In this document: in pieces, positions 1,311-51,213 of the stretch
How the letters are laid out: each line of letters begins with the position of its first letter
Position numbering within the stretch: position 1 is the first letter of the stretch
Assembly: GCA_000002445.1 (NCBI GenBank)
Contig: CP000071.1
Location: 32,001-96,000 of the forward strand
Length of the DNA stretch: 64,000 nt
Direction: 5' to 3'
Source of the DNA: Trypanosoma brucei
Taxonomy: Eukaryota
Made by a program: the position numbers and the translations under genes
Notes under the pieces: generated by a model
What the model was told of the DNA's origin: nothing
Database searches by the model: none
Seen by the model: only the letters and a program-made list of their open reading frames with translations

Positions 1311-1329
1311 AACAAATATCTGGGCCAGC

Positions 1330-16325: not shown

Positions 16326-17738
16326 AACGGACAAAATAGAAGCACACAAAAAATAGCATGGGTGAAATGTGAGTAACTTATGTGAAGAAATGATGAGGAT
16401 TATTGCTAAAAACTTGTAGGAAAAAGAGATGGAGATATAATATGTGCAGTTTTTTCATTATACGGTTACCTTCACGAATATCAAATGTTCTATACATACA
16501 TCCTGTGAGGCTACTTCTTTAGTTGATATGTTTCCTATTCTCACGCTCCGCCATTCACTCCCTCCTGTGGGGCCTGGATAACAGCGTCTTGTTGAGGAAC
16601 ACGCTTTTGAATATTGTCTTCCACCATTTGAGGAAAATATCACTTGCTGTTATCCGAATGTGTTGCATGACACCAGTGAATATTTAGAATGATGGTGACC
16701 TTTCTCTCTTGATTCGCAGTCGGGTTATCAATTTGTTCGTGTCTATGGTAAGAACCGAATTTGCCGTTGGAAAGAAGACTGCCCTTAAGAAGATCACCAG
16801 CTTAACACTGAAGTATATATCTTCCTTTTTCGGAATGACTACTACATTCTAAGACCTGAGTTTACTCAAAGATGGACACTGCAACAGGTGAGCCGATGTT
16901 TCTTTGCATTCCTTTCTTACCTTATTTCATCTATCAGAGCCACGTGCCTGCCTGTGTGCTGCTTGAATTTGCAATGTTAGATATTGCTTGTGTGCGCATA
17001 CCTTCTAGCAGTGTGGGAATTGGTGCTAGAGAGAGGCCAGTGGCGTGATTTAAAGGGATTCTTTTTCACACTCTCTCTTCACAGTGATTGCATTTTTGTG
17101 GTGTGTTCTGGTATGCCATACTAGTGTATACCATGACATGTAGGTGTTCTCACACCTTCCACATGCAAACTCTCTACGAGGGTTCTCTGTATGCCCTCAA
17201 GTCCTTATGCCGTTTGTGTTTCAGCTCCTCTCTCTGACCGCATATATTTTCTCGTCTGCTGGAGTGTCATGCTCGGTCTCTCTTTTTCTCTTTCTTGTCA
17301 TGGAGTTCAAGTTTTGTGTGTGTGACGAGTCTGAGTTGAGAAGTGCTCTATTTATTGAGTGAGGCTTCAATCCATTTTTTGTAGTGGTTTCTAGTTGTGT
17401 ATCTCCACTGTGGGGGGTGTTCACCTTCTTACTTTTTTAGTCCGAGTTCTCGATACTCACGCACTTTTGTGTGTATCAGTCACGTCTTGCTCTTGAAACA
17501 CCTCTTGCATTTGTGGAAAACATAAAGTAGTGGCTCATTGTCATCCTCATTTTTGTTTTCACCACTATTGTCTTCCGTTACTTGCAACTTTGACATCTTC
17601 TTTGTCATTTTACTTAACTTTAACAGTTGGGGTATGAGTAAGATATCATGCCCGGGGTGTTTTATATTCATATGGCGTAACATCCAGTTGTGGTGATATT
17701 CTTTACCGCATATCTTACATGTTTCTCTCCGACACTAT

Positions 17739-18245
17739 TTATTGTAGTGGTGCACGTGGTTCCCCTTCACTCTGCTTCGAATTGTACTTATGTCTGTTGA
17801 GCCAGGTTTTGCTTTTATACACCTGTTTGCAGCTAAGACATTTGTATGCTTGTGGTGCTTCCCATTGTTCATCTTTACTGCTATCATCCTGTATTTCCGT
17901 TTGTTGTGTCACTTCGGTTTGCTTTTCAGGATGTTTCAGGCGCATATGCCTATCCAACCAGCCATACGTGACATGCTGCTTCGGAAGCCATTGACACTTG
18001 TGGAGAGTAGGTAACGACTGTTCTTCTCGTTTCCTCTTTTGTCGCTCTGTCCATACTAGTGGAGTTGTCAAAGTGTATTGTGGCACATGTTGTTGCAGTA
18101 GTCCCTTTCTGTCGAATACTTTACAACATACGTGACATCGATAGACAATCTCACATGCCTGTTCTGCTCTCTGAGCAATCGTTAATACAGCTAGCGTATA
18201 TTGACGAACACACTGATGTATTTTCATCATGTGAAGAACTTCCAC
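17739..18245 (-). pseudogene. DIRE C-terminal C2H2 zinc-finger domain fragment
   Basis: YRCHVCCKVFDRKGLLQQH and YKCLSCKQVYKSKTWLNRH motifs. Homologous to ingi C-terminus 24774..26126. Confidence 0.55.
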
Positions 18246-19743
18246 TTACCGTCTTGCACATACGATATTGCAAACTGGGAATATGATATGGTAATTCTGT
18301 ATTGTAGCTATTGCCACCTTGCGTTCCTCAGTTTCTTCTATCTTTAGAGTGTTTTGAGTTTGTGCAGTGTAATTTCTGAGATTGTTCCCCGTGTACTTTG
18401 TACACCATCTGCGCTTCAGTTATTCACCTGTTCATGTGATCACCCTATGTGTCCATCCAAAATGTTTTGAAGTCCCTGTTTTAAATTGAGCCAACAGTGA
18501 CTCATCATACATGTCTAGCGCCTTCATTTTGTATGTCTGTTTTACATGGTTTAGTAAAGCGCTGCGGTGTGTGTTTTTGTGCCGGTCTTCCACAAATTCG
18601 CGTCGTGTCTGAATACATAATTGGCGCGTTATACCTGTGACAATGTTGGTGATCTGTGAACTACAAATTGACGGCATATGTTTTTCTTTGTTTGGAAGCT
18701 CGTCTGTTTTGGCATTTCTCGGGATGCCGCAATTAAAAAACACAAACTGAAACGACATGTCTACTCTCAGTTTCATGAAGTGTATGATCAAATTCTATAT
18801 GCGTCGTAGTATGCAATCTGTCACTACCGCAGGACCGTTTTAAGTGCAATTAACAAAGATAAAGAGTCTGTGAATATTGCCACTTTCGTTTTTCTACTCT
18901 CGTTGATCTTTATTACTGACTTAAGTTTCATAAGTCTTGCCTCCATGGCTACACACTAGGCTCTGTATCTGCATGCTAACCTGCCTGCTTTTTTCTTTAC
19001 TTTTACTGCATTACCTCGTCTAGGGTATATTATCGCGCCGGCACCAGAGGATTCTTCCAGTATCACTGACCCATCCGCCCACACTTTATAATCGTAGTCT
19101 TTGAATCTACGTACCCTTTGTATTGTGTGCCTTTTCTTTTCTCTGTCACAAGCGTTAGAATGGAGACCACCTGGTGTTGTGGTGTTGAAGTATGGTCTCC
19201 TCGCCAGTTGCCATATGCTTGCCGTGTGTGGCTTCTCCGGTCTGCCCACTTCCTCATACGGGTGTGACACACTCTGCAGGCACGTGTGCATCGGATAATT
19301 AGGTGGTAACATTTTCCCACTGTATCAGCTGATGCCTTACCTTTCGCTCTACTTTTTAAATATTATTCTATTGCTCTTCTGTGAGCAATATTATCTCTTG
19401 TGAGGGCTGGACTCCTTCATGGCATCTTGCGAATTTGTATACTTTGAAATACCAGCGATAACATGTGCCTCCTGTGCTTGTACTTGTTCAAGCTTCTCCT
19501 TGTTTGATGGAGAAGCTTTGAACAAACATGCTGCGATACCATAGCACACCTTTCCCTGGATTAAGGTTAAGTAAAATGTTCGGACGCTTTCTTTACTCGC
19601 TTTCCATTCACGTGGTGCAACAGCCCTTAGTTTTATTAATCTCATAATTCCTTTTGTTTGTAAGGTACATGTGCTATTTGCTTACTCAGCCCTTTGTGTG
19701 GCTGTATTCTCATCCCAAGGAGTCTGGAATTTCTCTTCTTTTT

Positions 19744-20358
19744 TTACCTATGCTCTTCCAGAATTAGGTGCAATGAGTCTCTGTCTCTCACCTCAAAGAG
19801 TGTGAATTCCATCTTTGTTTTTGCAGACACCTCCATATAGTGCCCTGTTGACCAGGTCGCTATACAATCCAATCCTGTTTGCAGCGTCTGCCGAATAGCT
19901 TCTCGGTCAGTGTTAGAGCATACTATCGTGAAGTCGCCTGCGAAGAAGCAGTGTTTAATGGCTACAATGGCATTTAATTTCGCGCTTAGGGAGTCCATTG
20001 CAATAGTGAATGGCAACGGCGTCAAAACGGAAACTTGTGTAACACCACATGTGAGTTGTATTTTCTTTGAGAGGGTGTTGTTTATTCGTACTAATGCAGT
20101 CCGTCCCTCCAGAAAATTTGCAAACCACGAAATGAGGTGCATGTCTGCCTCATATCTTATTAATGCATCTATTATGCACATGCAATCCATATAGTCAAAT
20201 GACCTCGCATAATCTATGAATAACACAGCAGTTTTCTCTCCTGCTACTCTATATTTCACTAAGTCTGTGAGTGCCATTAGAGCGTCTAACAACATATATC
20301 TGCCCGAACGAAAGCCACATTGCTGAGGTTTCATCTTACACTCTACTTTGTCTCGCAT
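19744..20358 (-). pseudogene. DIRE reverse-transcriptase domain fragment
   Basis: QQCGFRSGRYMLLDAL...VLFIDYARSFDYMD...LTCGVTQVSVLTPLPF, parallel to the ingi RT region (QQSGFRPGCST...VFVDYEKAFDTVDHD...GVPQGTVLGP). Confidence 0.6.
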
Positions 20359-21742
20359 TTATTGCGCTACGATCCTCTCCATGAGATTACAGAGGATGTT
20401 AGTGAGTGTAATGGGTCAAAACGATGACATACACTTGGCCACTTTGTTGAGGTTGAGTAGTGTGACAATAACACCATGATTTCACTTCTCCGGCACCCGG
20501 TGTCTCTGTAGCCTACAGTTGAAGAGCTTGAGAACACATATTTCTTTATACGGTGTCCTAATTGCTTCAACTGTTCACAATGTATACATTCCTTATCGGT
20601 GTAACTTCCTGAATATAATTCCTTCAGTGCTGTCTCAAGTTCTGCCTCGTTATTGGTGCGAATTCTCCGCTCGCACGGTATGGTATACTCATGGGAGGAG
20701 AATCTGGTGATTTCGTCGACTGCTCTCTATATATCTGTGCTAGTTTATTAGTTTGCTGTCTGAGTGTTAGAGAATGGTCATTCAAAACCAGAACTGGAGA
20801 TGACAGTGGCCTCGGTTCATATATGGATTTAACTAAATTCTAACTTTTTGTATCAGTCACTGACATATTCGACACATTTTCCTTCCAATGTTGTAGGGAC
20901 GTTTCAGCGAGAACCTTCCTTCTCTTGTATGTAAGGACATCTCTCTGTGCTTCTCATTTGTGCACTCCCTTATTCTCGTGTCTATTCCAGTCAGTTGTCG
21001 TGTCCAGAACGGTGGAGATACATCCTTACCTTTCGGTATTGTTTTATTTGACGCTTTGAAAATTCGTTTAGTTACTGCCTCATTCATGGCATTCATGTTC
21101 TTTCTCGATTTCCTTAATTTTTTCAACATCATTATACCACACACTTTTCGAAACTACCGCCAATTTGCTTTGTTCCAAACATAAAACGCCCTTTGTGGCG
21201 TTGTAATTGCGACAATTTCCACACCAATTCCAATACACACCTCAAACTCCATCCAGCAGTGGTCACAACCTGGACTGAGGTTTGCCTCCCATCTTGTGAC
21301 TTCGCAGTCTCTGTACATCGTAATGTCGGACGACGACCTAATTGCCGTTTGTGGAATTCCTCTCGTTGGTGTACCATCATTTTGCATTTCTGACATCGTT
21401 TTGTAGACACCAGTCTATAACGCAGTATTCCGCTGCATCATTTGACCGAAGCGGGTCAAATAACTCATGATCTGCGTTACTGTCTGATCCTATTACTAGT
21501 GGTCCCTGGCGATGCCGGCCACCTCAACGTGGTGCCAGGGTCCAGTACACCGTATCATTGGGTGAAGCCAAGAGCCAGCAGCGTTCCTTTCATGGGGAAC
21601 ACTGCTTTGCTCCGGCTACGGCATAATACAGCACAGGGATCAGCAGCATCTTGCTGGGACAGTGTTCTTCATTTGTCGGTCCCTGGGCACGTGCCAGCGT
21701 GCCATCAGCAGTATCATCCGCACTAAGATGCTGCGGTCCGGT

Positions 21743-21766
21743 GATGTGGAAGAGAATCCCGGCCCG
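21743..21766 (+). other. 2A-like self-cleaving peptide motif DVEENPGP in ingi ORF 5' region
   Basis: gatgtggaagagaatcccggcccg, in frame with ORF 21662..21886 (…KMLRSGDVEENPGPSFPEM…) and upstream of the endonuclease domain. Confidence 0.8.
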
Positions 21767-22462
21767 TCGTTTCCCGAGATGCAGTGGAACTGCGCCGGGC
21801 TATCTCAAGGAAAGAGATTAGCACTCCACAAAACCCTTGTTGATGAGCGGATCGCCTTTTGTCTGTTGAGCGAGAGACAAGGATGACGCCTGGAGAGGAA
21901 GCTTGTTTAGCGTTGCTGGCTACCAACATCACGGAATAGCTCGTAACTGCAAAGGAGGTGGTGTATCAATACTAGTGAGGGAGGACCTGCCAGTCGAGAC
22001 AGGTATGGCCGTTGTTGGTCGCATTGAACAAGTGCATGCAACAATTCACCTTGCACGTGGAACGGCGCTGACTGTCACGTCGGCATACATCCCACCAAAA
22101 CACACCTTCACGACAAGTGACCTAGATACGCTTCTGACGACTGACGGTGCCCAGCTCTCATCGCTGCAGACGCTAACGCACACGCGTTGGCATGGGATCG
22201 CGCGAGCCCACCAAATACCAAGGGTGAAACCCTCACACAGTGGTGCATTGACAACCAGTTTCTGGTCTCCAACACTGGTGAGTGCACCAGGTACGCGCGC
22301 CACCACGGGGAGTCCAGCCCTGATGTGACACTGTCAAGGAATTGCACAGTGTACACGTGAACATCGCTGTATTCTCCCGATAGCGATCACCATCACATAT
22401 TTTTCGACGTTATCGTTGGAGAAGACACAGATGCACTGAGTTGCCCGCGGCTTCGAAAGCCC

Positions 22463-23989
22463 ATGTACGCATGGCTAAAAGCTAACTGGAGGAATTTCCG
22501 TCTCAAGGTTGACGAGCTCTGCAGGAAAATTGGTAGAGAGAAGAACGTCAACACCCTGGAACAGAAATTGAGCTCCGCCATCTGCATTGCGACGAAGGTC
22601 TCCGTCCCCCGTGGCTGCAGAGCAACGCCACCACATTGGACACCTGAGCTCGCGAAACTCGATGAAGAGATCGCTGGATGCGGACCCTCCCACCGAAGGG
22701 AAAAGTTGGTAGCCACGCGTAAGCAGATCCTGGACCGTACCACAAAGAAGAGATGGAGCACGCTATGCTCCAGACTTGCGGTGTCAGACCGCTGCAGTTG
22801 GTACATTGTCAAGAAGGTATATGCGCCACGACAACTAACCACACCGGCTGTACTTGTTGATAACGCGGCCATCACGGACTACCATCAAGCTGAGAGGTTC
22901 AGTAAACTGTACTCGTCCCGCGCAAGAAGGCACCCCGACTCACACCCAGCGGCACCCATAAAGACGATAGCGAGTGAGTTCAGTCCCATCACGATGGCTG
23001 AACTACGGAGATCGATCAAACTGCTACCGAGTGGATCCGCAGCCGGACCTGATTGCTTATACAAGGAGGCACTGCAACATCTCGGCAGAACAGCGCTGAA
23101 TGTTGTTCTGAGGCTATTCAATGAGAGCCTACGAACGGGAGTCGTGCCGCCTGCATGGAAAACCGGTGTTATCATCCCCATCCTGAAGGCCGGAAAAAAG
23201 GCGGAGGGCCTCGATTCTTACAGGCCTGTGACGCTCACGAGCTGTCTCTGCAAAGTCATGGAGCGCATAATTGCAGCAAAGCGTAGAGACACTGTTGAGT
23301 CCCAGCTGACGCCGCAGCAATCAGGTTTCCGCCCCGGATGCTCAACGCTCGAACAGCTGCTGCACGTCCGCGCTGCTCTCTGCCGCCCCACGCACTAATC
23401 TCGTACGGGTGCTGTATTCGTCGACTACGAGAAGGCATTCGATACAGTAGACCACGACAAAATTGCGAGGGAAATGCACAGAATGAAGGTATCACCCCAC
23501 ATTGTGAAGTGGTGCGTATCATTTCTGAGTAACCGAACTGGCAGAGTGAGATTCAAGGAGAAGCTTTTCAGAAGCAGAACATTTGAGCGAGGAGTGCCAC
23601 AAGGAACTGTCCTTGGCCCAATCATGTTCATTATTATCATGAACTCGTTGAGCCAGTTCCTTGCAGAAGTGCCGTTACTGCAGCACGGATTCTTTGCAGA
23701 CGACCTAACGCTACTTGCCAGGCACACAGAGAGGGATGTCATCAACCACACACTACAGTGCGGTCTAAACGTGGTGTTACAGTGGTCAAAAGAGTACTTC
23801 ATATCTGTCAACGTAGCAAAAACGAAGTGCACACTCTTCGGGTGTACAGAGTGCCACCCCCTTACATTACAACTGGAAGGCGAAAGAATTGGAGCTGACA
23901 GGACACCGAAGCTTCTAGGAGTAACATTCCAGTGTCTGCAAGGGATGGCAACACATGCGGCTGAAACGAGACGCAAGATGGACTTCTGA
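22463..23989 (+). pseudogene. ingi reverse-transcriptase region (two ORF fragments plus frameshifted FVDYEKAFD box at about 23400..23470)
   Basis: ORFs 22463..23398 and 23474..23989, with VFVDYEKAFDTVDHD in a third frame between them. Confidence 0.8.
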
Positions 23990-24773
23990 CTACTGCAGAT
24001 AGCAGCCATCTCAGCTCCTACATGGGGGCCAAGACGACAAGTACTGAGAGCCTTTTATCTAGCACTCGTACAGGCACATACCATGTATGGCATTGAGGTA
24101 TGGTACTGGGACGCTTCGGAACGAAGTCACGACCTCCTTGCATCAGCACAACATAAAGCCAGTCGCATCATAGCTGGCATACCGCATGGGACGCAAAGAG
24201 GATTCTATGCCGGAAGCAAACCTCCTGCTACTCAAGACGACCACTCTTGTGCGCAGCATGAAATTCATGCCGATGTGTGAGTCACGAGGCGGATGTTTGT
24301 GCCGCAGTGCTGAAGAAGTATACCACAGCAAACACCCACTCAGAGCCCTACATTCCCGCATCATGCGGTCCTACCCCTACATCTGCATTGAGCCACGCGA
24401 GCACCCACTAGAGACATCGACGCTCCGCCACAGTTGCCGACAGATATTTCACACGCAGATAAAGCCTGTGTGCGCTGATGACCCTGACGATGTCAAAAGG
24501 GAGGCTTCCGAAAAGTGGATTGAACGGCATTTTGCACGGATGGGGAAGGAGCCACCGCGGCGAGAGCACTACGAATTGTGGACTGATGGATCCGTGTCCC
24601 TCGGTGAGAAGACCGGGGCAGCTGCCCTGCTCTATAGAAACAACACGCTGATTTGTGCACCAAAGACCGGAGCAGGGGAACTCTCATGCAGTTACAGAGC
24701 GGAATGCGTAGCATTAGAGATAGGACTGTAACGGCTGCTGAAATGGCTTCCGGCATGCAGAAGCACACCGAGC

Positions 24774-38716: not shown

Positions 38717-38769
38717 CATTCTAAGGATTTTGGAACAAATTTATGAAATTTGCTACATTTGATAAAATG

Positions 38770-38785: not shown

Positions 38786-38964
38786 TTTCTTTATTGAAAA
38801 TGTAGAAATTTTTAAACACTCAAAGATATAAAATTTTTTTATGATAGTGGTCTATAAGTGAAAAGTATTAGAATGATATGGTATGAAAAATTAGTGATAT
38901 TTTAGTTTTTTGTGTTTAATTATAAACATTAAACAAGTTTATAAAACTAAAAAGAGTTAAGAAC

Positions 38965-39025
38965 AAAATAATAATGATAATATAACGTTGTGTATATATA
39001 CTAATATTATAATAAGAGGTGTGAT
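38965..39025 (+). repeat. 70-bp repeat (one degenerate copy, core partly deleted)
   Basis: AATAATGATAATATAACGTTGTGTATATATACTAATATTATAATAAGAGGTG. Confidence 0.6.
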
Positions 39026-40809
39026 AATTACCCAATTAGCGGTTAAAATATTGAAATAATGTAATGAGAGTGATTGAGTAGAATATACAGAGTATCAAAG
39101 GCCACTAATATTATTAATAAGAGAGGCACATAATTCAAAAGATAAAAGGGTGTGAAATGTACAGAATTACAAACATAAACATGAAGATAGGCGTAATATT
39201 ACGCATGGAGATTATGCAAGTAATATTGAGAGAGAGAAAAAACAACTGTACAGTAAAGTGGTGTTTCTAATTTTTATGAGGTCATTTTTGCAGTAAAGAA
39301 AAAACGAAAATATTGAATGAAATAAAAGTATATGTGACAAATGGGTTTACAATAGCGGAGTGTATGATGCAAGAGGAAATAGTGCGCTGTATTTAAACGG
39401 AAAGGAAAAGATGCTACCTAAACGATGGACACAATGGTAGTATTTAGCTTTGTGGCAGATCTTAGTGCCCAACTGTGAAGAAGAAACAGGACCAGGAGAA
39501 AGGGGCTGAGTAAGTTTGTGGTAATGTTGAAATGATGTTCTCATCAGCTATTGTAACAATGGTCTTCACTTGTTAGTCGCTATTAAATATTATCACCAAA
39601 TTTATTTTTACTAGAATTACCAATGAAGTTTTGTGGATGGCAAAACAAGGCATCAAATTTCGGAAATTGCTTAAAATAATGCATGTATCAAGCGACAGAG
39701 GGGGTTTATCAAGTACAGAAAGTTTCAAATAATGCATCATTAATTTCATATTTATGTACTTTTCAAACATAAAGAGCTTTCAGAGAGCTGATAATTAACG
39801 TAAAAGAAGTCGCTGACTCAAAGCTAAGAGAGTGTTTTGACGAAAACAGATCAACAAATCAAACACTTTCGATAGTCAATCACATAGTATCAAGCGTAAG
39901 AAACGTACAAGTTAGAGGCTTTTGAACGAAATTTAATAAGAATAGTGTATACGGAAAAAATGTTTATTGCTACTGAAGTAGAAGCTATTAGAAACAATGT
40001 GACAGCAGAAAGGAAAGGTTACAAATAACAGACGTTTAATGTTTTAGAGCTAGTGAAAATTTAAGTGGCTTGTAGATATGAAATAGTGAAGTTGTAGAAT
40101 AATAAACTGTAATATTATGTGCACAAAAACCAAATACAAGCTAGATTATTGGAGAGGACACAAATAAGTCCGCCAAGAAATAGCCCTCAACGCGAAAAAC
40201 ACAGAGGACTGGCAGCATACCTCCAACAACAGCAAAACTCTACGGCAGACCATCATGCACAGCTAAGTGCTTTTTGCTGTTTTGGAAGCAAGCCGCATCA
40301 AGTGCAAGACACTAGTAGCTGCTGACTGCCTTAAAGCTGCTCGCTGTTTTCTCGGAGTAGCCTGACACCACTCAAAAAATTGAAGGCGTTGCACCTGTTC
40401 AACATCCGGCCACTGTGGTCCTTGGCACAGTAATGGTAAATACAATAGGCGGAAAATCGAAAAGAAACGTAGAGTCCGTATGACACCAATAGGCTTGTCT
40501 AACAACCCACAATGGTTACTTTTTCAAACCCATTAAGGTGCGCGCAAGCGGATCAATTGAATTGCAACGGACAACCGAAACTTGTCCCGCCGCGAAAAAT
40601 GTCGAAGATGCTTCAGAAAAGCGATGCTTATTTTTACCCCTATTGAAGTGCCACAACGATAAACCACCAATAAAACTGCATGCCGCAGGCAAAACGGAGC
40701 GCGATGTAAAAAGATCAAATACTATGCCACTAAGAAACTCCAGGGGTAACTCTCTTTTTGAAAAGCAACAAGAAGACAACGATAAGGACTTAGGGAATTC
40801 TAAATAGCT

Positions 40810-42211
40810 ATGATAGCCCAAGCACTTAAAATTCTTGCATTCACAACAGCCATTCTAGCGGCTGCGCTGCACCCAACTGGCAAGCAGCCAAAAGGTGCCT
40901 GCGATGCCCGAGACGACCTACGGACCATAGTAAGCAGCCTACAAACGGCAATGCGGCAGCAGGAAGAACAGATCAGGGTTGGAACACAGCAGGTAACGCG
41001 GCTACATATAATGGCGGCTATTCACGGAAAAGAATGAACCAAGCGGTACAGACCGCTGGGGGCCGCAGCGGCGGCCAGAGTAAACAGAGCGAGCGCGTCT
41101 GTAAGCGCTGCTCAGAGCGCTACATACGAGGCAGCACAAGCAATAAGCGAACTGGCAGGCATGCAAGAGCTGGTAGCGGACCTAGCGGCACGAAAAGTGC
41201 AAGACAAACCGGCTTCAACGTTCAGCGGCTGGGCGGCAAACGGCGTACAAATCAAGCTCAACAGCCTGGGGAAAGACAGCAACAACTGTGCAAAAAACTA
41301 GAACAGCCCAGGCAAACAGACAAACAGCAGCGAGGCAGCTACACGAAGGACACCCACAAATACAGCTCTATCACCTCGCAGCGGAACCAGACGTAAGTTC
41401 ATCTGGCCCGGGCGGACGAAAGATATGCCCGGTCGCTTCCGGCAGCAGCGCATCCGCGAGCGGAACGCAGGGCAATAGCAACAGCGCTCTACTAACAACA
41501 GGCCCAATTGTAAAGGAAGAACAGGCAGTATACCGGGTAGAAACGGCAGACCTTAACTCATACACGCGGGCCACTAGCAAGCCAGCAGGCATAGTGCCGA
41601 CACAAGCCGACGTGGAGAAAGTGCTGGCAAAACTAAGGGCCGCCGAGAAGCTGACCGCAACACTTACCTTCAAAGTGGCACAACTAGAAGAAGCGACGCT
41701 CGCAGCAGATGAAGAGACAGCCGAGATGATTCAGCAAATAATAGCACCCGGAAGCAAGTCTACGGCTATGGGAGACGACGAAGCAAAAATTAAAAGTCAC
41801 AAAACCCAATACTACGGCGAAAATGGTGAAAAGCTCGCAGCAGGAGTGTAGAAAATGATTAAAAGCCAGCAGATAGCCCCTGAAGTGTCGAGCGCGAGTC
41901 CACAGACGGCCCTGAACGCTCTAACCGCCGACGAGCAGCTGTCACGAACTCTCAATCACCACATTAGTCAAAACATTAGGTCCAAAACAGAAGATGAGCA
42001 GAAAAGTTCAAAGACAGAGGAAGAAGAATGCAGTAGCAAAAAGGGAACTAAGTGCACAGGAGATTTCCTTATGGTAGAAGGAGTTTGCACGCCCAAAAAG
42101 AAAGGAGAGGGAGAAAACAAAGGTAAATATGGGACAACAAACACCACAGGACGCAATTCTTTCGTCATTTACAAGGTTTCTCTTTTGCTTGTATTTTTGA
42201 TTTGGAGATAA
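40810..42211 (+). pseudogene. VSG: VSG pseudogene (frameshifts near 41037, 41290-41400 and 41851)
   Basis: Signal MIAQALKILAFTTAILAAALH. Pieces 41034..41396, 41288..41851, 41855..42211 ending ...CSSKKGTKCTGDFLMVEGVCTPKKKGEGENKGKYGTTNTTGRNSFVIYKVSLLLVFLIWR*. Confidence 0.8.
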
Positions 42212-42334
42212 AAAATATTTAGGATTTTTGCTCAAATTTATGAATTTTATGAAACTTGCTATTTTTTAAATAATTTTTCAAGATATAAAAGATGGTGGTC
42301 AGAATGTGTAATGTAGTTGGGTAATACTGTATGA

Positions 42335-42395
42335 ATAGTAATGGTAATGATAGGAATGTTTGTGAGTATGTATGTACTAATATTATAATTAAATT
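42335..42395 (+). repeat. 70-bp repeat (one degenerate copy)
   Basis: AATGGTAATGATAGGAATGTTTGTGAGTATGTATGTACTAATATTATAATTAAATTGG. Confidence 0.7.
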
Positions 42396-43868
42396 GGTAG
42401 ACCTCAAGGAATTGTATTTAAAAAATGGAGAAACACAAAGGCAGAGGGGACGAGAGATAAAATATGCTCATTTTTAAACAAAGCATGGAGATAAATATCA
42501 TAACACACAAGAAGGTGATGGAAGGAACAGTGAGGGACTAAGGGTTTGGTGTAAAGGTGAAATGGGTGTCGCTACGTTATCCGCAGTAATTGAAATAGAC
42601 GAAAAATATGGAAAGAATATATGTAATAAAACGACTGTAGAGGCAGAAAAATAGCGGAGGGAATACCGTAGGTAAGGTCCTAAGATTTATCTAAATGATC
42701 ATTTGTCATAGTTATTAATACGGCTAAGAATCAAGCTTACAAACAAGCAGTTGATAATCGAACCTACCCATGCAGAAAGTGCTAAAAGAAACATTAAATA
42801 CAAGGAGAAAGCACCAAGATTGAGAAACAATAAAAACATAAAATAGTTGTTAGAAATAATAAGATAACGTTGGAATCATAAATTATTAGAAATAATTAGC
42901 CTTATTGTCTCCTACACGTGAGCAAATATTCGACGTTATTAGATAGACGCAAACATTTTGTTATTATCTAGATTCAACCGTTTAAATGGTTGAAAACCCA
43001 ATTTCACGAGATATTGAGTAGAATAGAAGTTATATAGGTTAGAATAGTGCAGAAGATTTTATTTTACAAAGCGAAAAATAGTGTAATGTGGCCATTTATA
43101 AAAGATATTTCATCCTTACTACAGCTTTTAGTAGCGTAAATTTAAAGTAATAATTGTAAATGAAATGCAAAAACAGAAACATTTATATTGCAGTATGAAA
43201 GCGAAACCAACCACTAATCAAGGCGCCACCATAGAGAAATAAGCAAGCCAGGAGATAACGGCAACCACGGCTTGTCAGACACACTCCATCTTTGTAACAG
43301 CAGCCAAATTAGCTCAAGACACACTGAAAAAGCAAATAAGAACAAACCCCACCAACAGCGAGCAGCAAACGGCTGGAACGAAAGAAGCGGAAAAGACGTG
43401 CTTGACGAGGCAATGACGCAGAACAACTGGTATAATGATAGCGTATATTGTCTGGAATACCGTAGTGCAATTCTTTAAGTAGCTCAGCCGGGAAGCTACT
43501 ATGAAGAAAAGGGCAACGTACCACATTCAAAACACATGTGGCAGCATAAGGTTGCACTTTTTCAATCCGCAATCACAGCAGAAAAGGACGTTCCCAAAAC
43601 AACAGGAGGTTCATTCACAAAGTAGTACAAGAAAACACAAATATAACGACACAATAGACCACCAATCTCCAAAAAAAAGCGGAGACACCTTCCCTCACAG
43701 CGCAATATACAGTCAAGTTTAAGGAATGGCAGATTCCACAGGAGAAGGTCAGCACTGTTTTAGCAAAGAACACCACCAGCCATCAAGATTTCCCCCTTTT
43801 TTTTACGCCATTAAAGGCACCAACATCTACAGCAACAAGATTCAGTCTAACAAACGACGCGACACAGC

Positions 43869-45280
43869 ATGCGTGGCGTACACCCAACCGCACTACACGC
43901 ACCAGACGCCAGCATTGAAAGTACGCTCGCTCTTTTCAACCTAACGATTTCAGCTCCAAAGGCACTGCAGGAGCTAGAAACCGCCAAAGCTCCAGAAACG
44001 GCAATCGAAAAAGACGGTTCCTCGGCCAAAATACACTGCGCCGACAAAGCAAAAGAGCTGTGTTTAAAAGCTGCAGCAAGGGCCAAAACCCATGGAAATG
44101 ACAAAATAGCACTAGAACTCAAACAAGATGCGAGTGACGAGCAAGTAAAAGCGGCTATAAACAACACCCTGATGCAATTACATGGCTTGCTCGCAAAGTT
44201 CGAGCAACAGAAGGTGCAAACCAAACAAACAACCGTAAGCAGCTTGCTACTTAAAGCACTCGGCGCCAAGGCTGACGGCACAACAAGTATAAAGCTGACG
44301 GGCTACAGCACCGACCTGGCGACTACATGCGGCAAACCCAACACCGAAAACAAAGGGACAGCCGCAGGCAAAACCATTGCGGTCGATACCATATGCCTTT
44401 GTGCTAGCGACAGCACAAACAGCAACAGCAAAGCGTGCGGAACAAAAGACGACGCTCGACCGTAACTTTCAACAACGAGAACAATGAGATACAAACAGCG
44501 TGGCAAGCACTAGCAGCAGAGTGCAAAAAGCAGTACGCAACCAAGGCGCTAACAGGAAAAAGCCTGGAACAAGCCGTGCAGCATTTTCTCTTTGAAATAG
44601 CAAAAAAACAAGGAGCCAAGGGCGATTTAAGCAACACTTTGGGTTTCATCAGTGGAACAGGAGCGAACGGCTGCACGGCAGCTAACGACAACAACGAAGG
44701 AAGCTGCGTATATTACGGTCGGGAATCGACCAACAAAGGGCCGCTTAAACCAGGCTGGTTGGAGCCACTCAACCAAGCAGTAGCAGCTCTTTGGAACAGC
44801 GAACAGGCTGCTCAACGAGCGCATGCATTAACCGACAGAATCACAGCACTAAACAATACGCTCTCTTCGCTCATACACCTTGGTGGAGCTGCAGCAAGTC
44901 AACAAAAAAGTAAAGCAAACCACCCTACTGACAAAACCGTCAATAGCAAGAATGCAGAAAAAGCGGCAAACAGAGAGTGCAAGCAGCACAAAAACAACAA
45001 AAATGCATGCGAAAATGCAGGAAAATTCAAATGCAAGGGAAAAACTAAAACAGACGGCCCATGCGAACCTAAAGAGAGAGAATGACAGACAAATACGGCA
45101 GGAACAGGAGATGGAGCTGCAGGAATAACTAAAGAAGGAAAAAAGTGGTCTGAAACGACAAAGTGTGATGGTGACAAAAGTTGTAAATGGGATGGAAAAG
45201 AATGAAAAGGTTCCAGCTTTCTTGTCAATAAGAAATTAGCAATGAGTATGGCTGCTTTCGTGAGTTTATTATCATTTTAA
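43869..45280 (+). pseudogene. VSG: VSG pseudogene (no recognisable signal peptide; frameshift near 44465; in-frame TGA in C-terminal domain at about 45205)
   Basis: 43869..44465 (…TICLCASDSTNSNSKACG…), 44435..45085, and C-terminal CKWDGKE*KGSSFLVNKKLAMSMAAFVSLLSF* ending at 45280. The 3'UTR carries TTATATATATTAACAC at about 45379..45395. Confidence 0.8.
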
Positions 45281-45526
45281 ACATTATTAAAATTATAAGG
45301 ATTTTTGCTCAATTTGAGATATTTAATGAAAATTATAAAATTTGCTTTTCTAAGAGAATTTTCTAAATTTGGTAAAATTTTATATATATTAACACTTTTC
45401 AATGAAAATGTGAAAATCAGTCAATTTGAGGAGAAATATAAAAATTTGGATAGAAATTGATATAGGTGAAAAGTATCATGGTGGTAAGAAATGAAAAAAA
45501 ATATTTTAATTTCTTAACTTTTTCAC

Positions 45527-48500
45527 TATGAACTCTACCTGTATGCTCCTCAATCGATCTGTATAGACTTCCAGTGCGGCTACTTCTTTAACTGACACGC
45601 TTCCCATCATCACGATTCACTACTTGCTTCCTCCTGCGGGGCCTGGCTAACGGTGCCTTGTTGAGGAAGACCCCTGTTTGGACATTGTCTTCCATCATTT
45701 TAAATAAATCTCACTGGCTGTCATCCAAATGTGCAGCATATAGTCAGTGGATATTTAGCATGATGGGAACCTTTCTATCTTTATTTTTTGCAGGGTTATC
45801 AATTTCTTAGTGTCTATTGCGGGAGGAGTCGGATGTTCCGTTGAAAAGAAGAGTGCCCTTAAGAAGCTCGCCAATTTAACACTAAAGTATATATCTTCCT
45901 CTTTCAGACTGTTTACTCCATGCTTAGACAAGATTTTACTCAAAGCAGGAAACTGTAACACGTGTGCAGATGTTTTTTTTTACATTTCACTTTTAGCTCA
46001 TTTCGACTATCAGAGCCACGTGCCTGACAACCTTCCCCTTGGATGCGCATTATTAGATATTGCTTGCGTGCACATATCTTCGAGCAGTGTGAACATTGGT
46101 GCTTGAGAGGAGCCAGTGATGTGATTTCCAGGGGTTATTCTTCACGGTTCCTCTTGACAGTGATTGCATTTTCGTTGTGTGTCCCGGTATGCAATACTAG
46201 TGTACACCATGACGTGCAAGTGTTATCACACCTTCCACATGCAACCTCTCTACGAGTATTCTTTGTGTGCAATTAAGTCTTATGCCGTTTGTGTTTTAGC
46301 TCCTCTCTCTGATCGAAATATTTCCTTCTCATCTTCCCGCGTATCATGCTCGGTCTCTCTTATTCTCTCTCTTATTGTAGAGTTCAAGTTTTTTGTGTGT
46401 GACAAGTATGAGTTGGAGAGTGCTTTATCTATGATGTCGTGATTCGATCCACTTTTGGTAGTGGATTCTAGTTGTGTAGCTACTCTATGGTGGTTGCTTA
46501 CCCTCTCACTTTTTTGATCTACTTTTTCAATGCTCACGCACTTGTGACGTGTTAGCCATGTCTTGCTTTTGAAACCTCTCTTTTATTTGTCGCAAACATA
46601 AAGTGGTGGTTCACTGTCATCCTCATTTTTTTGTTCTCGCTACTAGTGTCTTTCTTTGCAAATTTTATATCTCCTTAGTCACTTTTCTTCTTTTTATCGT
46701 CTGCGTTATGAGTGAGGTATCATGTCCTGTGTATTTTGCGTTCATTTCTCGTGACATCCAGTTGTGGTGATATTCTTTACCGCATATCTTATATGTCTCT
46801 CTCTCCGGAAGTACTTCCTGTAGTGGTGTGCTGGGTTCCCGTTCAATCAGCTCCGGTATGCACTTATGTCTGGTGAACCAGGTCTGGTTTTTATACACCT
46901 GTCTTCAGCGGAGATATTCGCATGCTTGTGGTGCATACTCTTGTTCAACTTCGTTGCTCCTATGCTGCACTTCCGTTTGTTGTGTCACTTCGATTTTCTT
47001 TTCAGGACGTTTCATATGTATATGCTTGCTCAACCAGTCATATGTGGCATAATTCTTAGTCAGCATTGACACTTGTGGACAGTTGGCAACGACGGTTCTT
47101 CTCCTTCTTGATTCCCATTTTCTCGCTCTGTATATACTGCTGGAGTTGTCAAAGTGTATTGTGGCATGTGTTGTTGCAGTAGTCTCTTTATGTCGAATAC
47201 TTTACCAATACGTGACATCGATAAACGTCATTATACGCCTGCGCTGCTATTGGCACCATTTGTAGTGCAGTGAGTACATTTTCAACCCACTGATGTATCT
47301 TCATCGTGTGTACACTCCCCTTGGTTGTCTCGCACACACGATGTTTTAAAATGAGCATATGAAAGGTTCATTCTGTCTTGTAGCTATTACAACTTTGCTT
47401 TCCTCAGTTTCTTCCGTCGTTGGTGTTTTGAGTAAGGGAAGGAATATTGAAAATGTTCCCTTTGTGTGGTTTGTACACCATCTACATTCAAGGTCGTCAA
47501 CCTTTCGTGTGATCACCCTATGTAACCATTCAAAATGTTTTGAAGTCCCTGTTCTAAATTGAACCAACAGTGACTCATCTTCCCGTCCTAGCTCCTTTTT
47601 TTAGAAGGGTCAGTTTCATGTGGTTTAATAAAGCGCTGAGGTGTTTGTTTGTGCCGCGGCCTTCCGAAATTGTGCATTGCGCCTGATTACGTAATTGGCG
47701 CTTTATACCTGTGACTATGTCAGTAATCTATGCAGGGTAGATTTGCAGCATGTGGTTGCCTTTGTTTACGAGCTCTTCCACTTTGTTAATTCTCGGGATA
47801 TGGCAATGCTAAAACACAAACTAAAACGACATGTTTACTCTCAGTTTCATGAAGCATAGGATCAGATCTCATATGCGTCACAGTATGGAATTCGTCACTA
47901 CTTCATGATCTGTTTTAAGAGATATTAATAAAGATAAAGAGTATATAAATATTTCCACCTTCGTTTTTTCTACTTTACTTGATCTTTATTACTGACTTAA
48001 GTTTCATAAGTCTTGCCTCCATGGCTACACACTAGGCTCTGTATCTGCATGCTAACCTGCCTCCTTTCCTCACTTTTAACACTTTACCTCGTCTAGGGTA
48101 TATTATCGCGCCGGCACCAGAGGATTCTTCCAGTATCACTGACCCATCCGCCCACACTTTATAATCGTAGTCTTTGAATCTACGTACCCTTTGTATTGTG
48201 TGCCTTTTCTTTTCTCTGTCACAAGCGTTAGAATGGAGACCACCTGGTGTTGTGGTGTTGAAGTATGGTCTCCTCGCCAGTTGCCATATGCTTGCCGTGT
48301 GTGGCTTCTCCGGTCTGTCTACTTCCTCATACAAGTGTGACACACTCTGCAGGCGCGTGTATATCGGATGAATGGGTGGGAACATTTTTTCCACTGTATC
48401 AGCTGATGACTTGCCCTTTGTCTTTCTTGTTAAATGGTATTCTATTGCTCGTCTGTGAGCAATATCATCTATCTTGTGAAGGCGAGCCTTTTTTACGGAA

Positions 48501-51213
48501 TTATGCTGATTCGCATACTTTGTAATACCAGCGATAACACATGCAGCCTGCGCTTGTACTCGTTTGGGCTTCTCCTTATTTGATGGAGATGCATTAAACC
48601 ACCATGCTGCGATACCATAGCATAACGTTCCCCGGATTAAGGCTAAGTAAAATGATCTGACTCTTTCTTTACTATCCTCCTATTCGGGTGATGCAACAGC
48701 CCTTAATTTCATTAATCTCATAGTTGCTGCTGTTTGTAGGGTACATGTGCTATTTGCTTACACCCTTGTGTGGTTGCATTCTCACCTGAAGGAGTCTAGG
48801 ATTCCTTGTCTCATTTAACCTGTGCTATCCCACCATTAGGTGTAATGGGTCTCTGTCTTTCACCCCAAAGGATGTGTAATTCGTTTTTTTCTGCGGACAG
48901 CCCCATATAGTGCTCTGCTGATCAGCTCGCTATACAATCCAATCCTGTTTGCAGCGTCTGCCGAATAGCTGCCCGGTCAGTGTTAGAGCATACTATCGTG
49001 TGGTCATCTGAAAAGAAGAGGTGTTTAAGGGCTGGTATGGCATTTCGTTTCGCGCTGAAGTCCATTGAGATAATGGATAGCAATGGCGTCAAAACGGAAA
49101 CTTCTGTAACACTACACGTGAGTTGTATTTTCTTTGAGAGGGTGTTGCTTATTATTGCTACTGCAGTCCATCTCTCCAGGAAATTTGCAACCCACCCAAT
49201 GAGGTGCATGCTTACCTCATATCTTTTTATTGCATCCGCAATTCATCCATGATGTGCAGAATCAAGTGCTCTCGCATAATCTATGAATACCATAGCGGTT
49301 TTCTCTCCTGCTACATTATGTGTCACTGATTCTGTGAGTGTCATCAGGTTGTCTAACGTAGACGTCCACGAACAAAAACCAGCTTTCTATGGTTGTGGCT
49401 TACATTCTACATTGTCTCGTATGCATCACGCTACAATCCTCTTCATGAGCTTATATAGGGTGCTATTGAGCGTGATGGACCTAAACGATGACATACACTT
49501 TGCAGGTTTGTTGGGTTTGAGTAGTAACACAATAACGCCCTACTTCCACTTCTCCGTCGTCTAGTTTCTCTGTAGGCTACAGTTGAAAAGCTTGGGAACA
49601 CATTTCTTGCTACGGCGTTCTAATTAACTCAACTAATTGTTCACAATGTATATCGTCCTTGCCTAGGGAAGTACCTGAAGACAGTTCTTCTAGTGCTGTC
49701 TCAAGTTCTGCCATATTTATTGGTGCGAATTATACGCTCACTCGATAAGGTGTACTCATGGGAGGAGCATCTGGTGCTTTCGTTTACTGCTCTCTATACA
49801 TTTGAGCTGGCTTATTAGCTTGCTTTCTGCGTGTTAGAGGGTAGTCATTCACTACCAAAACCGGAGATGTCAGTAGTCTCAGTGGGTATACGAACTTAAC
49901 TAAATTCCAACTTTTTGTGTCAGTCACTGACATCTTCGACACACTTTCCTTCCACCGTTGTAGGGACGTTTCAGCGAGAGCCTTCCTTCTCTTGCATATA
50001 AGGGCATCTCTGTGCTTTTAATTTGTACACTCCCTTATTTTTGTGTCCAGTTCTGTTAGCTCTCGTGCCCAGAATGATGGCGATACTTCCTTACCTTGCT
50101 GTATTGTTTTCTTTGCTGCTGTGCTAATGCCTTTGGTCACTGCCTCATTTATGGCATCCACGTTCTTTCTCGACTTCCTTAATTTTTTCACCATTATTAC
50201 ACCACACACTTTTCTAAACTCCCACAAATTTGCTCTATTCCAAGCGCAGAACGCCCTTCTCGGCTTTATAATAGCGATCATTTCTACACCAATCCCAATT
50301 CACACCTCAAACATTACACAGTAGTGGTCACTATCTGGACTGAGACTTGCCTCCCATCTTGTGACTTCGCAGTCTCTGTACATCGTAACATCGGGAGAAG
50401 ACCTGGTTGCAGTGTGAAACATTCTTCTCTTTGGGGTGCCATAATTTGCAATTTTGACATCATTTTGTAGACACCAGTCTACAATGCATTCTGCTGCTGT
50501 ATCATTTGGGCGAAGCGGGTCCCATATCTCATGATGTGCGTTGGTGTTGAATCCTATCACTAGGGGTTCAGTTGAGCTCTTAAGGCTATCTCAAGCGTGA
50601 AGGTAGCGAAATCTCTCTTTTGTTGGAAGTAAGCTGATTTTATATTTAACATTAGATCAGCTGAAAACATCAATGTTTCCGAGACTCTTTCTAGCGGTCC
50701 TTCCTCTTCCTTCGGACCTTGGATGACTCCCAAGCCATCCTTGACAAAACTTAATACCACACAACCATGTGGAAAATGTGCCATCCCATGTGTTGGTATC
50801 CACTGATTTTTAAGTTACAGCACTCTTTTGCTGCCAAGTGAGTCTCTTGAAATAGACAGAAGATTACCATATTATCGTGGAGCTTATTCTCTAAGGCGAT
50901 CCGCTTCGCCTGGGAGGAACCCCAGAGCTCCACTTGGCTCCACGAGTCATGAGACTGGTATTCTGTTCCACATCTCTGCTTAGTAGTAGAAGCCTATGTA
51001 TCCCAATTCAGGCACGCTCACACGTGCAGAGGAGCAGTCTAATATATTGCTTCATCCCAGAGGACTGATGTTGCTTTTTGCTTCTTATGCTGTCGCCGAA
51101 AGCCTATTTCCAACCCCAAACCTGTCGTACAGGGTATGATGCGGGCTCTTAGCTTCGCCCTTGACTGAGTACTAGACCTTGGCACCATGATGAGATGACC
51201 GGTAGCGCCAGGG
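45527..51213 (-). mobile_element. Degenerate ingi-related non-LTR retroelement (DIRE-like), copy 2, minus orientation, with intact Pr77-like 5' end
   Basis: Reverse complement of 51135..51213 reads CCCTGGCGCTACCGGTCATCTCATCATGGTGCCAAGGTCTAGTACTCAGTCAAGGGCGAAGCTAAGAGCCCGCATCA. Minus-strand ORF fragments: zinc-finger 46665..46898, RNase H-like 48032..48394, RT 48922..49209, endonuclease-like 50300..50560. Collinear with copy 1. Confidence 0.7.

What the first reader, a model, noticed from the sequence alone, without database searches (positions are those of the whole stretch)
16447..51213. Two directly oriented DIRE-like copies 29 kb apart bracket seven VSG units, with a near-identical conversion-like patch
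Copies at 16447..21503 and 45527..51213 are collinear and in the same (minus) orientation. Most of their length is about 80-85% identical, but about 430 bp (18900..19330 vs 47975..48400) is about 96% identical, including a 230-nt near-perfect run. This uneven divergence suggests gene conversion between copies. Direct repeats of this size could also mediate deletion or duplication of the intervening VSGs.
Basis: seen in the sequence. Interest (0 to 1): 0.55.

Follow-up and report, generated by a model that had tools for sequence, protein, structure and literature searches.

The report
Gene-conversion patch between two dead retroelements
Two decayed ingi-type retrotransposon relics 29 kb apart in a trypanosome surface-antigen (VSG) gene array differ at about one base in five, except for a roughly 340-base stretch that is almost identical because it was recently copied from one relic to the other; this is a clean but ordinary example of ectopic gene conversion.

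Summary
The core observation holds. Two minus-strand DIRE-type (degenerate ingi/L1Tc-related) elements, 16451-21503 and 45519-51213, align collinearly over 5.05 kb at about 79-80% identity. Outside one patch, divergence is statistically uniform at 21%. The patch, 18903-19244 = 47979-48317, is 96.8% identical. It consists of perfect runs of 82 and 234 nt split by a 26-nt unconverted island. A 234-nt perfect run has a chance probability of about 6e-22.

Three lines of evidence support DNA-level gene conversion after both copies had decayed:
- In-frame stops are private to each copy (9 and 17). The only identical shared one lies inside the patch, a TAG replacing the RNase H "YRAE" Glu.
- A third T. 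brucei copy (Tb10.v4.0050) is only 66-67% identical in protein across the patch and keeps that Glu. The patch is therefore not conserved across the family.
- There is no significant RNA structure and no Rfam hit.

- The interval holds five VSG units, not seven. It also holds a 4.8-kb plus-strand ingi-like element abutting copy 1 and about 4 kb of unclassified DNA.
- Background identity is 76-80%, not 80-85%.

The direction of conversion, and whether an unseen third copy was the donor, are unresolved. The deletion or duplication potential is untested. This is a known kind of event; interest is low to moderate.

The parts
16451..21503 (-). DIRE-type element, copy 1. It is 5'-truncated and lacks about 646 bp, including the Pr77 hallmark. 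The 3' end carries a short A-run near 16451-16456.
   Evidence: It aligns to copy 2 at about 79-80%. Pfam finds RVT_1 in 19744-20358(-) and C2H2 fingers in 17739-18245(-). It is collinear with the ingi-like element at 30-47% aa identity. At least 9 in-frame stops were detected. The 3' end was read.
45519..51213 (-). DIRE-type element, copy 2. It is full-length (about 5.7 kb) with a degenerate Pr77-type 5' hallmark at about 51137-51213.
   Evidence: Alignment. The 5' hallmark aligns with that of the plus-strand element from its first base, CCCTGGCG. Exo_endo_phos_2 hits 50300-50560(-). At least 17 in-frame stops were detected.
18903..19244 (-). Conversion patch in copy 1 (342 nt). It covers the RT-RNase H linker and the N-terminal part of the RNase H domain.
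   Evidence: It is 96.8% identical to 47979-48317, against 76-80% in the flanks. RNase H placement rests on the alignment to the ingi-like element (WTDGS...YRAEC) and on T. vivax 'putative RNase H' homologues carrying PF00075.
47979..48317 (-). Conversion patch in copy 2 (339 nt).
19011..19244 (.). Perfect 234-nt run, identical to 48084-48317.
   Evidence: Permutation maximum was 63. P is about 6e-22.
18903..18984 (.). Perfect 82-nt run, identical to 47979-48060.
   Evidence: P(run >= 82) is about 3e-6.
18985..19010 (.). Unconverted island inside the patch, corresponding to 48061-48083. It is 58% identical and has a 3-nt indel.
   Evidence: Each copy carries its own amino-acid changes here relative to the third copy P0002.
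18956..18958 (-). In-frame TAG at the RNase H 'YRAE' Glu codon. It is shared identically with copy 2 (48032-48034) and lies inside the patch.
   Evidence: The third copy P0002 and the ingi-like element both have Glu here.
21504..26329 (+). Ingi-like non-LTR retroelement, head-to-head with copy 1. It has a Pr77 hallmark, a 2A-like DVEENPGP motif (21743-21766), RT and RNase H domains, zinc fingers and an A9 tail. It is not part of the repeat pair, but it occupies 4.8 kb of the bracketed interval.
   Evidence: GC is about 52%, against about 41% in the DIRE copies.
30473..45395 (+). Five VSG (pseudo)gene units between the copies: 30473-32020, 33817-35265, 37146-38399, about 40493-42208, and 43851-45082. 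3'-UTR 16-mer matches lie at 35309, 38770 and 45380.
   Evidence: Pfam hits to Trypan_glycop, VSG_B and Trypan_glycop_C. The 16-mer scan is. ORF clustering and C-terminal-domain similarity are. The VSG-like 476-aa translation is.

Best explanation
The two repeats are old, independently decayed DIRE-type (degenerate ingi/L1Tc-related) non-LTR retroelements. Both lie antisense in the spacers of a silent Trypanosoma brucei-type VSG array.

Long after both had lost coding capacity, a DNA lesion in one copy was repaired by homologous recombination, using the other copy as an ectopic, homeologous template (about 21% diverged). The event was a non-crossover. It was probably synthesis-dependent strand annealing, RAD51/BRCA2-dependent as in VSG mosaic formation.

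The repair copied about 340 bp (18903-19244 = 47979-48317), covering the RT/RNase H junction, without exchanging flanks or deleting the interval. The 26-nt island that kept each copy's own sequence is best read as heteroduplex corrected discontinuously by short-patch mismatch repair.

Shown: the patch exists, it is statistically exceptional, it arose after the elements decayed, and it is not conserved across the family. Inferred: the repair pathway, that a single event produced it, and that these two copies (rather than an unseen one) were the partners. The direction of transfer is unknown.
For: 1. Divergence outside the patch fits a single binomial rate (21.2%, K2P 0.25; chi-square P 0.05-0.18). 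The patch has 0 differences in 234 nt and 0 in 82 nt.

2. The copies decayed independently. There are 33 indels between them, mostly not multiples of three. Copy 1 has 9 in-frame stops and copy 2 has 17, relative to the ingi-like reading frame. Only two fall on the same codon. One is TAG in one copy and TGA in the other, which I read as independent hits. The other is an identical TAG at 18958/48034, inside the patch. That TAG replaces the Glu of the RNase H 'YRAEC' motif.

3. Stop-codon density implies roughly 0.09 and 0.20 substitutions per site since coding constraint was lost. About 60-70 differences would therefore be expected in the 316 perfect bases if the patch were as old as the copies.

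4. A third T. brucei copy, P0002 (CAJ16761.1, Tb10.v4.0050, TREU927), covers the patch. It is only 66-67% identical in protein to both copies and retains the Glu. That matches normal inter-copy distance: 57-61% aa identity in the RT region between copy 1, copy 2 and P0001.

5. There is no Rfam family, no tRNA and no significant RNA structure (z = -0.8 on both strands).

6. The mechanism has precedent in T. brucei. Break-induced, RAD51/BRCA2-dependent, templated short insertions form between diverged VSG family members, with donors usable anywhere in the genome and left intact (PMC13233330). Discontinuous tracts have been attributed to short-patch mismatch repair (PMC1904282).
Against: - Only two DNA copies could be examined. 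No other DIRE DNA from this genome was obtainable, so direct exchange between these two copies cannot be separated from donation by an unseen near-identical copy.
- The third copy is known only as a 143-aa protein.
- Recombination between sequences 21% diverged is expected to be inefficient in T. brucei, since base mismatches impede it (PMC1904282).
- The tract is longer than the typical VSG mosaic insertions reported (less than 300 bp, mean about 55 bp).
- The two perfect runs could come from two events rather than one discontinuous tract.
- Read-level validation of the assembly was not possible.
Confidence: 0.78

Rival explanations
1. The conversion was real, but an unseen third DIRE copy elsewhere in the genome was the donor. 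That copy could be, for example, a recent segmental duplicate of one of these two. It may have overwritten one or both window copies, so the two window copies never interacted directly.
For: [quoted passage not shown] VSG subtelomeres are rich in duplicated blocks (established knowledge). The rest of the genome could not be inspected.
Against: It needs an extra element identical to the window copies across the patch. The only other T. brucei copy recovered (P0002) is 33-34% different in protein across the patch. Direct exchange between the two copies is more parsimonious.
Confidence: 0.14
2. The patch is an assembly or polishing artefact: reads from one copy were used to correct the other.
For: Subtelomeric VSG arrays are hard to assemble, and no reads were available to check.
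Against: The flanks are 21% diverged, so reads would not cross-map and start such an error. The patch contains a 26-nt island in which each copy keeps its own private sequence, which contiguous mis-polishing would not leave. The two copies are clearly distinct loci with different flanks.
Confidence: 0.03
3. The patch is a functionally constrained segment, such as an embedded RNA, a promoter or a domesticated peptide, and purifying selection has kept it identical.
For: A 118/120-aa ORF is open across the patch in both copies. The region encodes the most conserved RNase H N-terminal motif.
Against: - Identity is absolute at all codon positions for 316 nt, which protein-level selection does not produce.
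- The frame carries a shared nonsense codon at the catalytic-motif Glu.
- A third T. brucei copy differs at about one residue in three over the same stretch.
- There is no Rfam hit and no excess RNA folding energy.
- Pfam does not recognise the patch ORFs.
Confidence: 0.03
4. The mosaic predates insertion. The two elements derive from chimeric RNA or cDNA (template switching between subfamilies), so the patch was identical from the start.
For: Template switching is known for non-LTR retrotransposition in general (established knowledge).
Against: Both copies accumulated heavy private damage after insertion (9 and 17 stops and 33 indels, about 0.1-0.2 substitutions per site). A patch that old should show about 60-70 differences rather than 0. 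The shared nonsense codon inside the patch shows that an already-dead sequence was copied.
Confidence: 0.02

Closest known systems
DIRE (degenerate ingi/L1Tc-related elements) of trypanosomatids, T. brucei TbDIRE
   Same: The elements are about 5-5.7 kb. Copy 2 has the 76-79-bp Pr77-type hallmark at its 5' end. The domain order is endonuclease, RT, RNase H, then C2H2 fingers, collinear with an ingi-like element. The reading frame is riddled with stops and frameshifts, and the 3' end carries an A-run (definition from PMC3820030).
   Different: No reference DIRE sequence was available, so subclade assignment (ingi4 or ingi6 type) is not established. Target-site duplications are not detectable above chance. 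Copy 1 is 5'-truncated.
Segmental (mosaic) VSG gene conversion in T. brucei: break-induced, RAD51/BRCA2-dependent templated repair between diverged family members (Smith et al. 2026, PMC13233330)
   Same: A short tract is copied from a homeologous donor. The outcome is a non-crossover that leaves the donor and the gene order intact. Imperfect flanking homology is used, and donors are usable at a distance.
   Different: Here the substrate is a dead retroelement in a silent array, not an expressed VSG. The tract (about 340 bp) is longer than the typical mosaic insertions reported (mean about 55 bp, less than 300 bp). No selection for antigenic novelty is involved. The pathway is inferred, not shown.
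Discontinuous conversion tracts from short-patch mismatch repair of heteroduplex in T. brucei transformation assays (Barnes & McCulloch 2007, PMC1904282)
   Same: Donor-type and recipient-type segments alternate within one recombined stretch. That matches the 82-nt and 234-nt converted runs separated by a 26-nt unconverted island.
   Different: That study used 5-11% diverged, 25-450-bp transfected substrates. Here the partners are chromosomal, 21% diverged and 29 kb apart. Two separate events cannot be excluded.
Ectopic (interlocus) gene conversion between dispersed transposable-element copies in other eukaryotes, such as yeast Ty and mammalian LINE/Alu (recalled from general knowledge, not tested here)
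   Same: A local near-identical patch sits within otherwise diverged paralogous repeats, with no rearrangement of flanks.
   Different: The organism and genomic context differ. This comparison rests on general knowledge only.

Membership tests
[quoted passage not shown] | Long element of about 5 kb | tested here: met
   Copy 2 spans 45519-51213 (5.7 kb). Copy 1 spans 16451-21503 (5.05 kb, 5'-truncated). The size criterion comes from PMC3820030.
[quoted passage not shown] | Conserved 76-79-bp 'Pr77' signature at the 5' end | tested here: met
   The 5' end of copy 2 aligns from its first base (CCCTGGCG...) with the 5' end of the neighbouring ingi-like element; roughly three quarters of the first 79 positions are identical. 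Copy 1 is absent here because of truncation. No published consensus was available for comparison.
[quoted passage not shown] | Homology to the ingi/L1Tc polyprotein: endonuclease, RT, RNase H and C2H2 fingers, in that order | tested here: met
   Pfam finds Exo_endo_phos_2, RVT_1 and zf-C2H2 on the minus strand. tblastx hits to the ingi-like element are collinear along the whole length. Homologues in T. congolense, T. vivax and T. conorhini are named Tcoingi or RNase H.
[quoted passage not shown] | Degenerate: many stops and frameshifts, not able to code | tested here: met
   There are 9 (copy 1) and 17 (copy 2) in-frame stops within the homologous segments, and the frame shifts repeatedly. The longest ORFs are 204 aa in copy 1 and 120 aa in copy 2.
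[quoted passage not shown] | Poly(A) tail and target-site duplication from TPRT insertion, with a subclade-specific upstream motif | tested here: inconclusive
   Only short A-runs remain at the 3' ends. The best 12-nt TSD candidates (8/12 matches) are no better than shuffles. My own reading of the 34 nt upstream of copy 2 finds the ingi4-type T...GTxGGxT core described in PMC3820030, but shifted by 1 nt. This is suggestive only.
Ectopic (interlocus) gene conversion tract | A segment with significantly fewer differences than the rest of the paralogue alignment | tested here: met
   There are 0 differences in 234 nt and 0 in 82 nt, against a background of 21.2%. The permutation maximum run was 63, P is about 6e-22, and the rest of the alignment is homogeneous.
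Ectopic (interlocus) gene conversion tract | Non-reciprocal copying without exchange of flanks (non-crossover) | tested here: met
   Both flanks return to 76-80% identity. Both copies and the 24-kb interval remain in place. Non-reciprocity itself cannot be seen from the product alone.
Ectopic (interlocus) gene conversion tract | The similarity is specific to the pair and is not due to family-wide constraint | tested here: met
   The third T. brucei copy, P0002, is 66-67% identical in protein across the patch. That is the usual inter-copy level, and P0002 lacks the shared TAG. The test rests on one extra copy at protein level only.
Ectopic (interlocus) gene conversion tract | An identified donor and direction, from phylogenetic incongruence between the tract and its flanks | not testable with these tools
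   No further DNA copies of the family could be retrieved.

The most novel reading that the evidence does not exclude
The patch may be a neutral, unselected footprint showing that the short-patch, homeologous 'mosaic' conversion machinery of T. brucei also acts inside silent VSG arrays on non-VSG DNA that is 21% diverged. The event created a 234-bp perfectly identical direct repeat. That length exceeds the roughly 200 bp at which T. brucei recombination efficiency plateaus (PMC1904282). The repeat could now prime the 24-kb block, with its five VSGs and one ingi-like element, for deletion or duplication. On this reading, dead retroelements would serve both as neutral recorders of array recombination and as seeds for array copy-number change.
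Probability: 0.2. Interest if true: 0.4.

Novelty: new member of a known kind. Interest (0 to 1): 0.25.

Why it matters
On its own this is an ordinary instance of interlocus gene conversion between dispersed repeats.

It has modest value as a natural, selection-free record of how recombination behaves inside the silent VSG archive:
- The tract is about 340 bp long.
- It tolerated about 21% divergence between the partners.
- It is discontinuous, consistent with short-patch mismatch correction.
- It was resolved as a non-crossover over 29 kb.

Catalogued genome-wide, such footprints in dead retroelements could calibrate the rate and tract spectrum of archive recombination independently of immune selection on VSGs. 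They could also flag pairs of repeats that have gained long perfectly identical segments and so are candidates for array deletions or duplications.

Tried and rejected
1. Obtaining other DNA copies of the element:
   - A protein word-index search with the patch ORF found nothing.
   - A search with the RT fragment found one unnamed 60% hit, P0001.
   - Exact-protein contig look-ups for four window ORFs, P0001 and P0002 found nothing.
   - Exact DNA scans of the metagenome and prokaryote genome collections with a 49-mer from the patch found nothing.
   - Only the exhaustive HMMER search recovered a third T. brucei copy, and only as a 143-aa protein.
   - A profile search added only T. congolense and T. 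vivax relatives.
2. A functional RNA in the patch was rejected. There are no Rfam or tRNA hits, and folding z-scores are -0.8 on both strands.
3. A recognisable protein domain in the patch ORFs: Pfam finds nothing significant. RNase H placement comes from alignment to the ingi-like element and its homologues.
4. A larger segmental duplication that includes the flanks was rejected. The flanks share only weak VSG 3'-UTR-type similarity (68% over about 140 nt), and the neighbouring VSGs are of different types.
5. The missing 5' part of copy 1 was looked for beyond the inserted ingi-like element. It was not found by sensitive blastn or Smith-Waterman alignment.
6. Target-site duplications for copy 2 and for the ingi-like element are not better than shuffles.
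7. Other conversion patches between the two copies: none. The next-longest perfect runs (44, 42 and 38 nt) lie within the permutation range.
Full report
**Context.** The window is a Trypanosoma brucei-type silent VSG array. Plus-strand ORFs match the Pfam families Trypan_glycop (A-type), VSG_B and Trypan_glycop_C. 70-bp-type repeats lie at about 13.6, 32.2, 54.3 and 57.3 kb. The VSG 3'-UTR 16-mer TGATATATTTTAACAC occurs six times, against 0.12 expected by chance.

**Checking the observation.**
- Self-BLAST finds one long direct repeat, 16489-21503 vs 45558-50567, at 80.0% identity over 5078 columns.
- With sensitive settings it extends to 16451-21503 vs 45519-50567, at 79.3%.
- A global alignment has 33 indels, 80.1% identity over ungapped columns, and a transition:transversion count of 574:425.
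- In 100-column windows identity ranges from 65 to 88%. The exception is four consecutive windows scoring 94, 89, 100 and 96 at 18877-19290 / 47952-48365.
- At base resolution the patch is 18903-19244 in copy 1 and 47979-48317 in copy 2, at 96.8% identity.
- The patch is built from a perfect 82-nt run and a perfect 234-nt run. A 26-nt pyrimidine-rich island separates them, at only 58% identity and with a 3-nt indel.
- The next-longest perfect run anywhere in the alignment is 44 nt.
- Permuting the difference pattern 2000 times gave a mean longest run of 31.6 and a maximum of 63.
- The analytic probability of a run of 234 or more is about 6e-22.
- With the patch removed, differences fit a single rate of 21.2% (K2P 0.25). 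Chi-square P is 0.05, 0.09 and 0.18 for 50-, 100- and 200-nt bins.

The patch is therefore a single sharp outlier on an otherwise uniform background.

**What the repeats are.**
- Both copies read sense on the minus strand. Pfam finds Exo_endo_phos_2 (50300-50560), RVT_1 (19744-20358) and C2H2 fingers (17739-18245).
- Both are collinear by tblastx, at 30-47% amino-acid identity, with a better-preserved plus-strand ingi-like element in the same window.
- Copy 2 runs on to 51213. There it begins CCCTGGCG..., a degenerate copy of the Pr77-type 5' hallmark. It aligns from its first base with the 5' end of the ingi-like element.
- Each copy ends in a short A-run.
- Both reading frames are wrecked. 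At least 9 in-frame stops were detected in copy 1 and 17 in copy 2, with repeated frame changes.
- These features match the published definition of DIRE: long (about 5 kb) degenerate ingi/L1Tc-related elements carrying the 76-79-bp signature (PMC3820030).
- Target-site duplications are not detectable above chance, and subclade assignment is left open.

**Corrections to the description.**
- Copy 1 stops at 21503 because it is 5'-truncated. At 21504 a different element begins head-to-head on the plus strand.
- That element spans 21504-26329 and has about 52% GC. It carries a Pr77 hallmark, a 2A-like DVEENPGP motif, RT and RNase H domains, zinc fingers and an A9 tail.
- The missing 5' part of copy 1, about 646 bp, is not found anywhere else in the window.
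- The 24-kb interval therefore holds the 4.8-kb ingi-like element and about 4 kb of unclassified DNA with a 70-bp-repeat remnant (26.3-30.4 kb).
- It holds five VSG units, not seven.
- Background identity is 76-80%, not 80-85%.

**Conversion or conservation? Three independent tests.**

*1. The decay history.*
- I used the ingi-like element to define the ancestral reading frame and listed every in-frame stop in each copy. Almost all are private to one copy.
- Only two codons carry a stop in both copies. At 18797/47871 the stops differ (TAG and TGA), which I read as independent hits.
- At 18958/48034 both copies have TAG, and this codon lies inside the patch.
- The protein alignment shows that this TAG replaces the Glu of the RNase H 'YRAEC' motif, which is intact in the ingi-like element.
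- The two elements therefore degenerated separately. The one identical inactivating mutation they share sits exactly where the sequence is identical, so an already-dead sequence was copied.
- From the density of stops I estimate about 0.09 (copy 1) and about 0.20 (copy 2) substitutions per site since coding constraint was lost. This is rough, but it means most or all of the 21% divergence is post-insertion neutral decay.
- On that estimate, the 316 perfect bases would be expected to carry about 60-70 differences if they were as old as the elements. They carry none.
- This also rules out an RNA-level chimera that predates insertion.

*2. A third copy.*
- The exhaustive HMMER search with the patch ORF found P0002 at 69% identity.
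- P0002 is CAJ16761.1, 'hypothetical protein Tb10.v4.0050' of T. brucei TREU927. It is in fact a DIRE RNase H fragment that spans the patch.
- It is 95/143 and 95/142 identical to copies 1 and 2 (66-67%). It has Glu where they have TAG.
- For comparison, in the RT region copy 1 vs copy 2 is 60.6% identical in protein. Another family fragment, P0001, is 57-58% identical to each copy.
- The patch region is thus about as variable among family members as any other region. Only copies 1 and 2 are identical there.
- In the 26-nt island each window copy carries its own private residues relative to P0002, as expected for a stretch that escaped conversion.

*3. No sign of an embedded functional element.*
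- There is no Rfam family and no tRNA in the window.
- Folding energy is no better than shuffles on either strand (z about -0.8).
- Pfam finds nothing in the patch ORFs.

**Mechanism.**
- The product is a non-crossover. Identity falls back to background on both sides, and both copies and the interval are still present.
- The best-supported reading is repair of a lesion in one DIRE by homologous recombination, templated by the other copy. About 340 bp was copied.
- T. brucei is known to do this. Cas9 breaks in a VSG trigger RAD51- and BRCA2-dependent, templated short insertions from diverged family members. The donor is left intact and can be used wherever it lies in the genome (PMC13233330).
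- The unconverted island between two perfect runs fits the discontinuous donor/recipient patterns attributed to short-patch mismatch repair of heteroduplex in T. brucei (PMC1904282). Two separate events cannot be excluded.
- These pathway steps are inferred from precedent, not shown here.
- Two points fit less well. Mismatches impede T. brucei recombination (PMC1904282), and reported mosaic insertions are mostly shorter.

**What remains open.**
- The direction of transfer is unknown.
- An unseen, near-identical third copy could have been the donor. I could not retrieve any further DNA copies.
- An assembly or polishing artefact is unlikely. The flanks are too diverged for cross-mapping, and the island keeps copy-specific sequence. 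Reads were not available to check.
The conversion created a 234-bp perfect identity, above the roughly 200 bp at which T. brucei recombination efficiency plateaus (PMC1904282). Nothing in one sequence can test it.

**Verdict.** Several descriptive details needed correction. The phenomenon, interlocus gene conversion between dispersed repeats in a recombination-prone subtelomeric array, is a known kind of event. It is a tidy example with some value as a neutral recorder of archive recombination, but it would not surprise a specialist.

Noticed in passing
window 21504-26329 (+): A 4.8-kb ingi-like non-LTR element with about 52% GC lies here. It has a well-preserved Pr77 hallmark, a 2A-like DVEENPGP motif (21743-21766), long ORF fragments (141, 311, 171, 181 and 450 aa) and an A9 tail. 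It abuts the truncated 5' end of DIRE copy 1 head-to-head at 21503/21504. There is no significant target-site duplication. The missing DIRE 5' part does not reappear downstream, so a simple insertion into copy 1 does not explain the junction.
   Followed up: partly
window 26330-30470: About 4 kb has no detectable homology to VSGs, DIRE or ingi, and AT skew is negative over 26-28 kb. Only short ORFs occur. The sole recognisable feature is a 70-bp-repeat remnant at about 29.04-29.32 kb.
   Followed up: partly
window 33838-35268 (+): An intact 476-aa ORF has VSG-like features: a signal peptide, a Cys-rich C-terminal region, and a 3'-UTR 16-mer 41 nt downstream. It has no Pfam VSG domain hit. Its C-terminus reads on about 18 residues past a GPI-signal-like ...NRAPLLLAVLF.
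   Followed up: partly
window 272-1690 (+): A 472-aa ORF has a weak Galactosyl_T Pfam match (E 1.5e-5, residues 166-208). Its last 40 residues match the start of the VSG_B domain. It may be a glycosyltransferase pseudogene running into a VSG.
   Followed up: no
P0002 (CAJ16761.1, Tb10.v4.0050, T. brucei TREU927): This public 'hypothetical protein' is really the RNase H N-terminal fragment of another DIRE copy of the same family. It is 66-67% identical to the window copies.
   Followed up: yes
window 51214-51247 (minus strand, upstream of the copy 2 5' end): The 34 nt upstream of copy 2 contain T...GTTGGTT. This matches the core of the published ingi4-type endonuclease target signature (AxxxxxxxTxxxGTxGGxTxxx^xTxTxxTxxxxx), but shifted by 1 nt. 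It hints that this DIRE family used ingi4-type insertion specificity.
   Followed up: partly
window 16097-16112 and 45380-45395 (+): Both DIRE copies sit antisense just downstream of a VSG 3'-UTR 16-mer. The 3' end of copy 1 is 339 nt from it and that of copy 2 is 124 nt from it. Both therefore lie in the spacer between one VSG and the next unit's 70-bp repeats.
   Followed up: no
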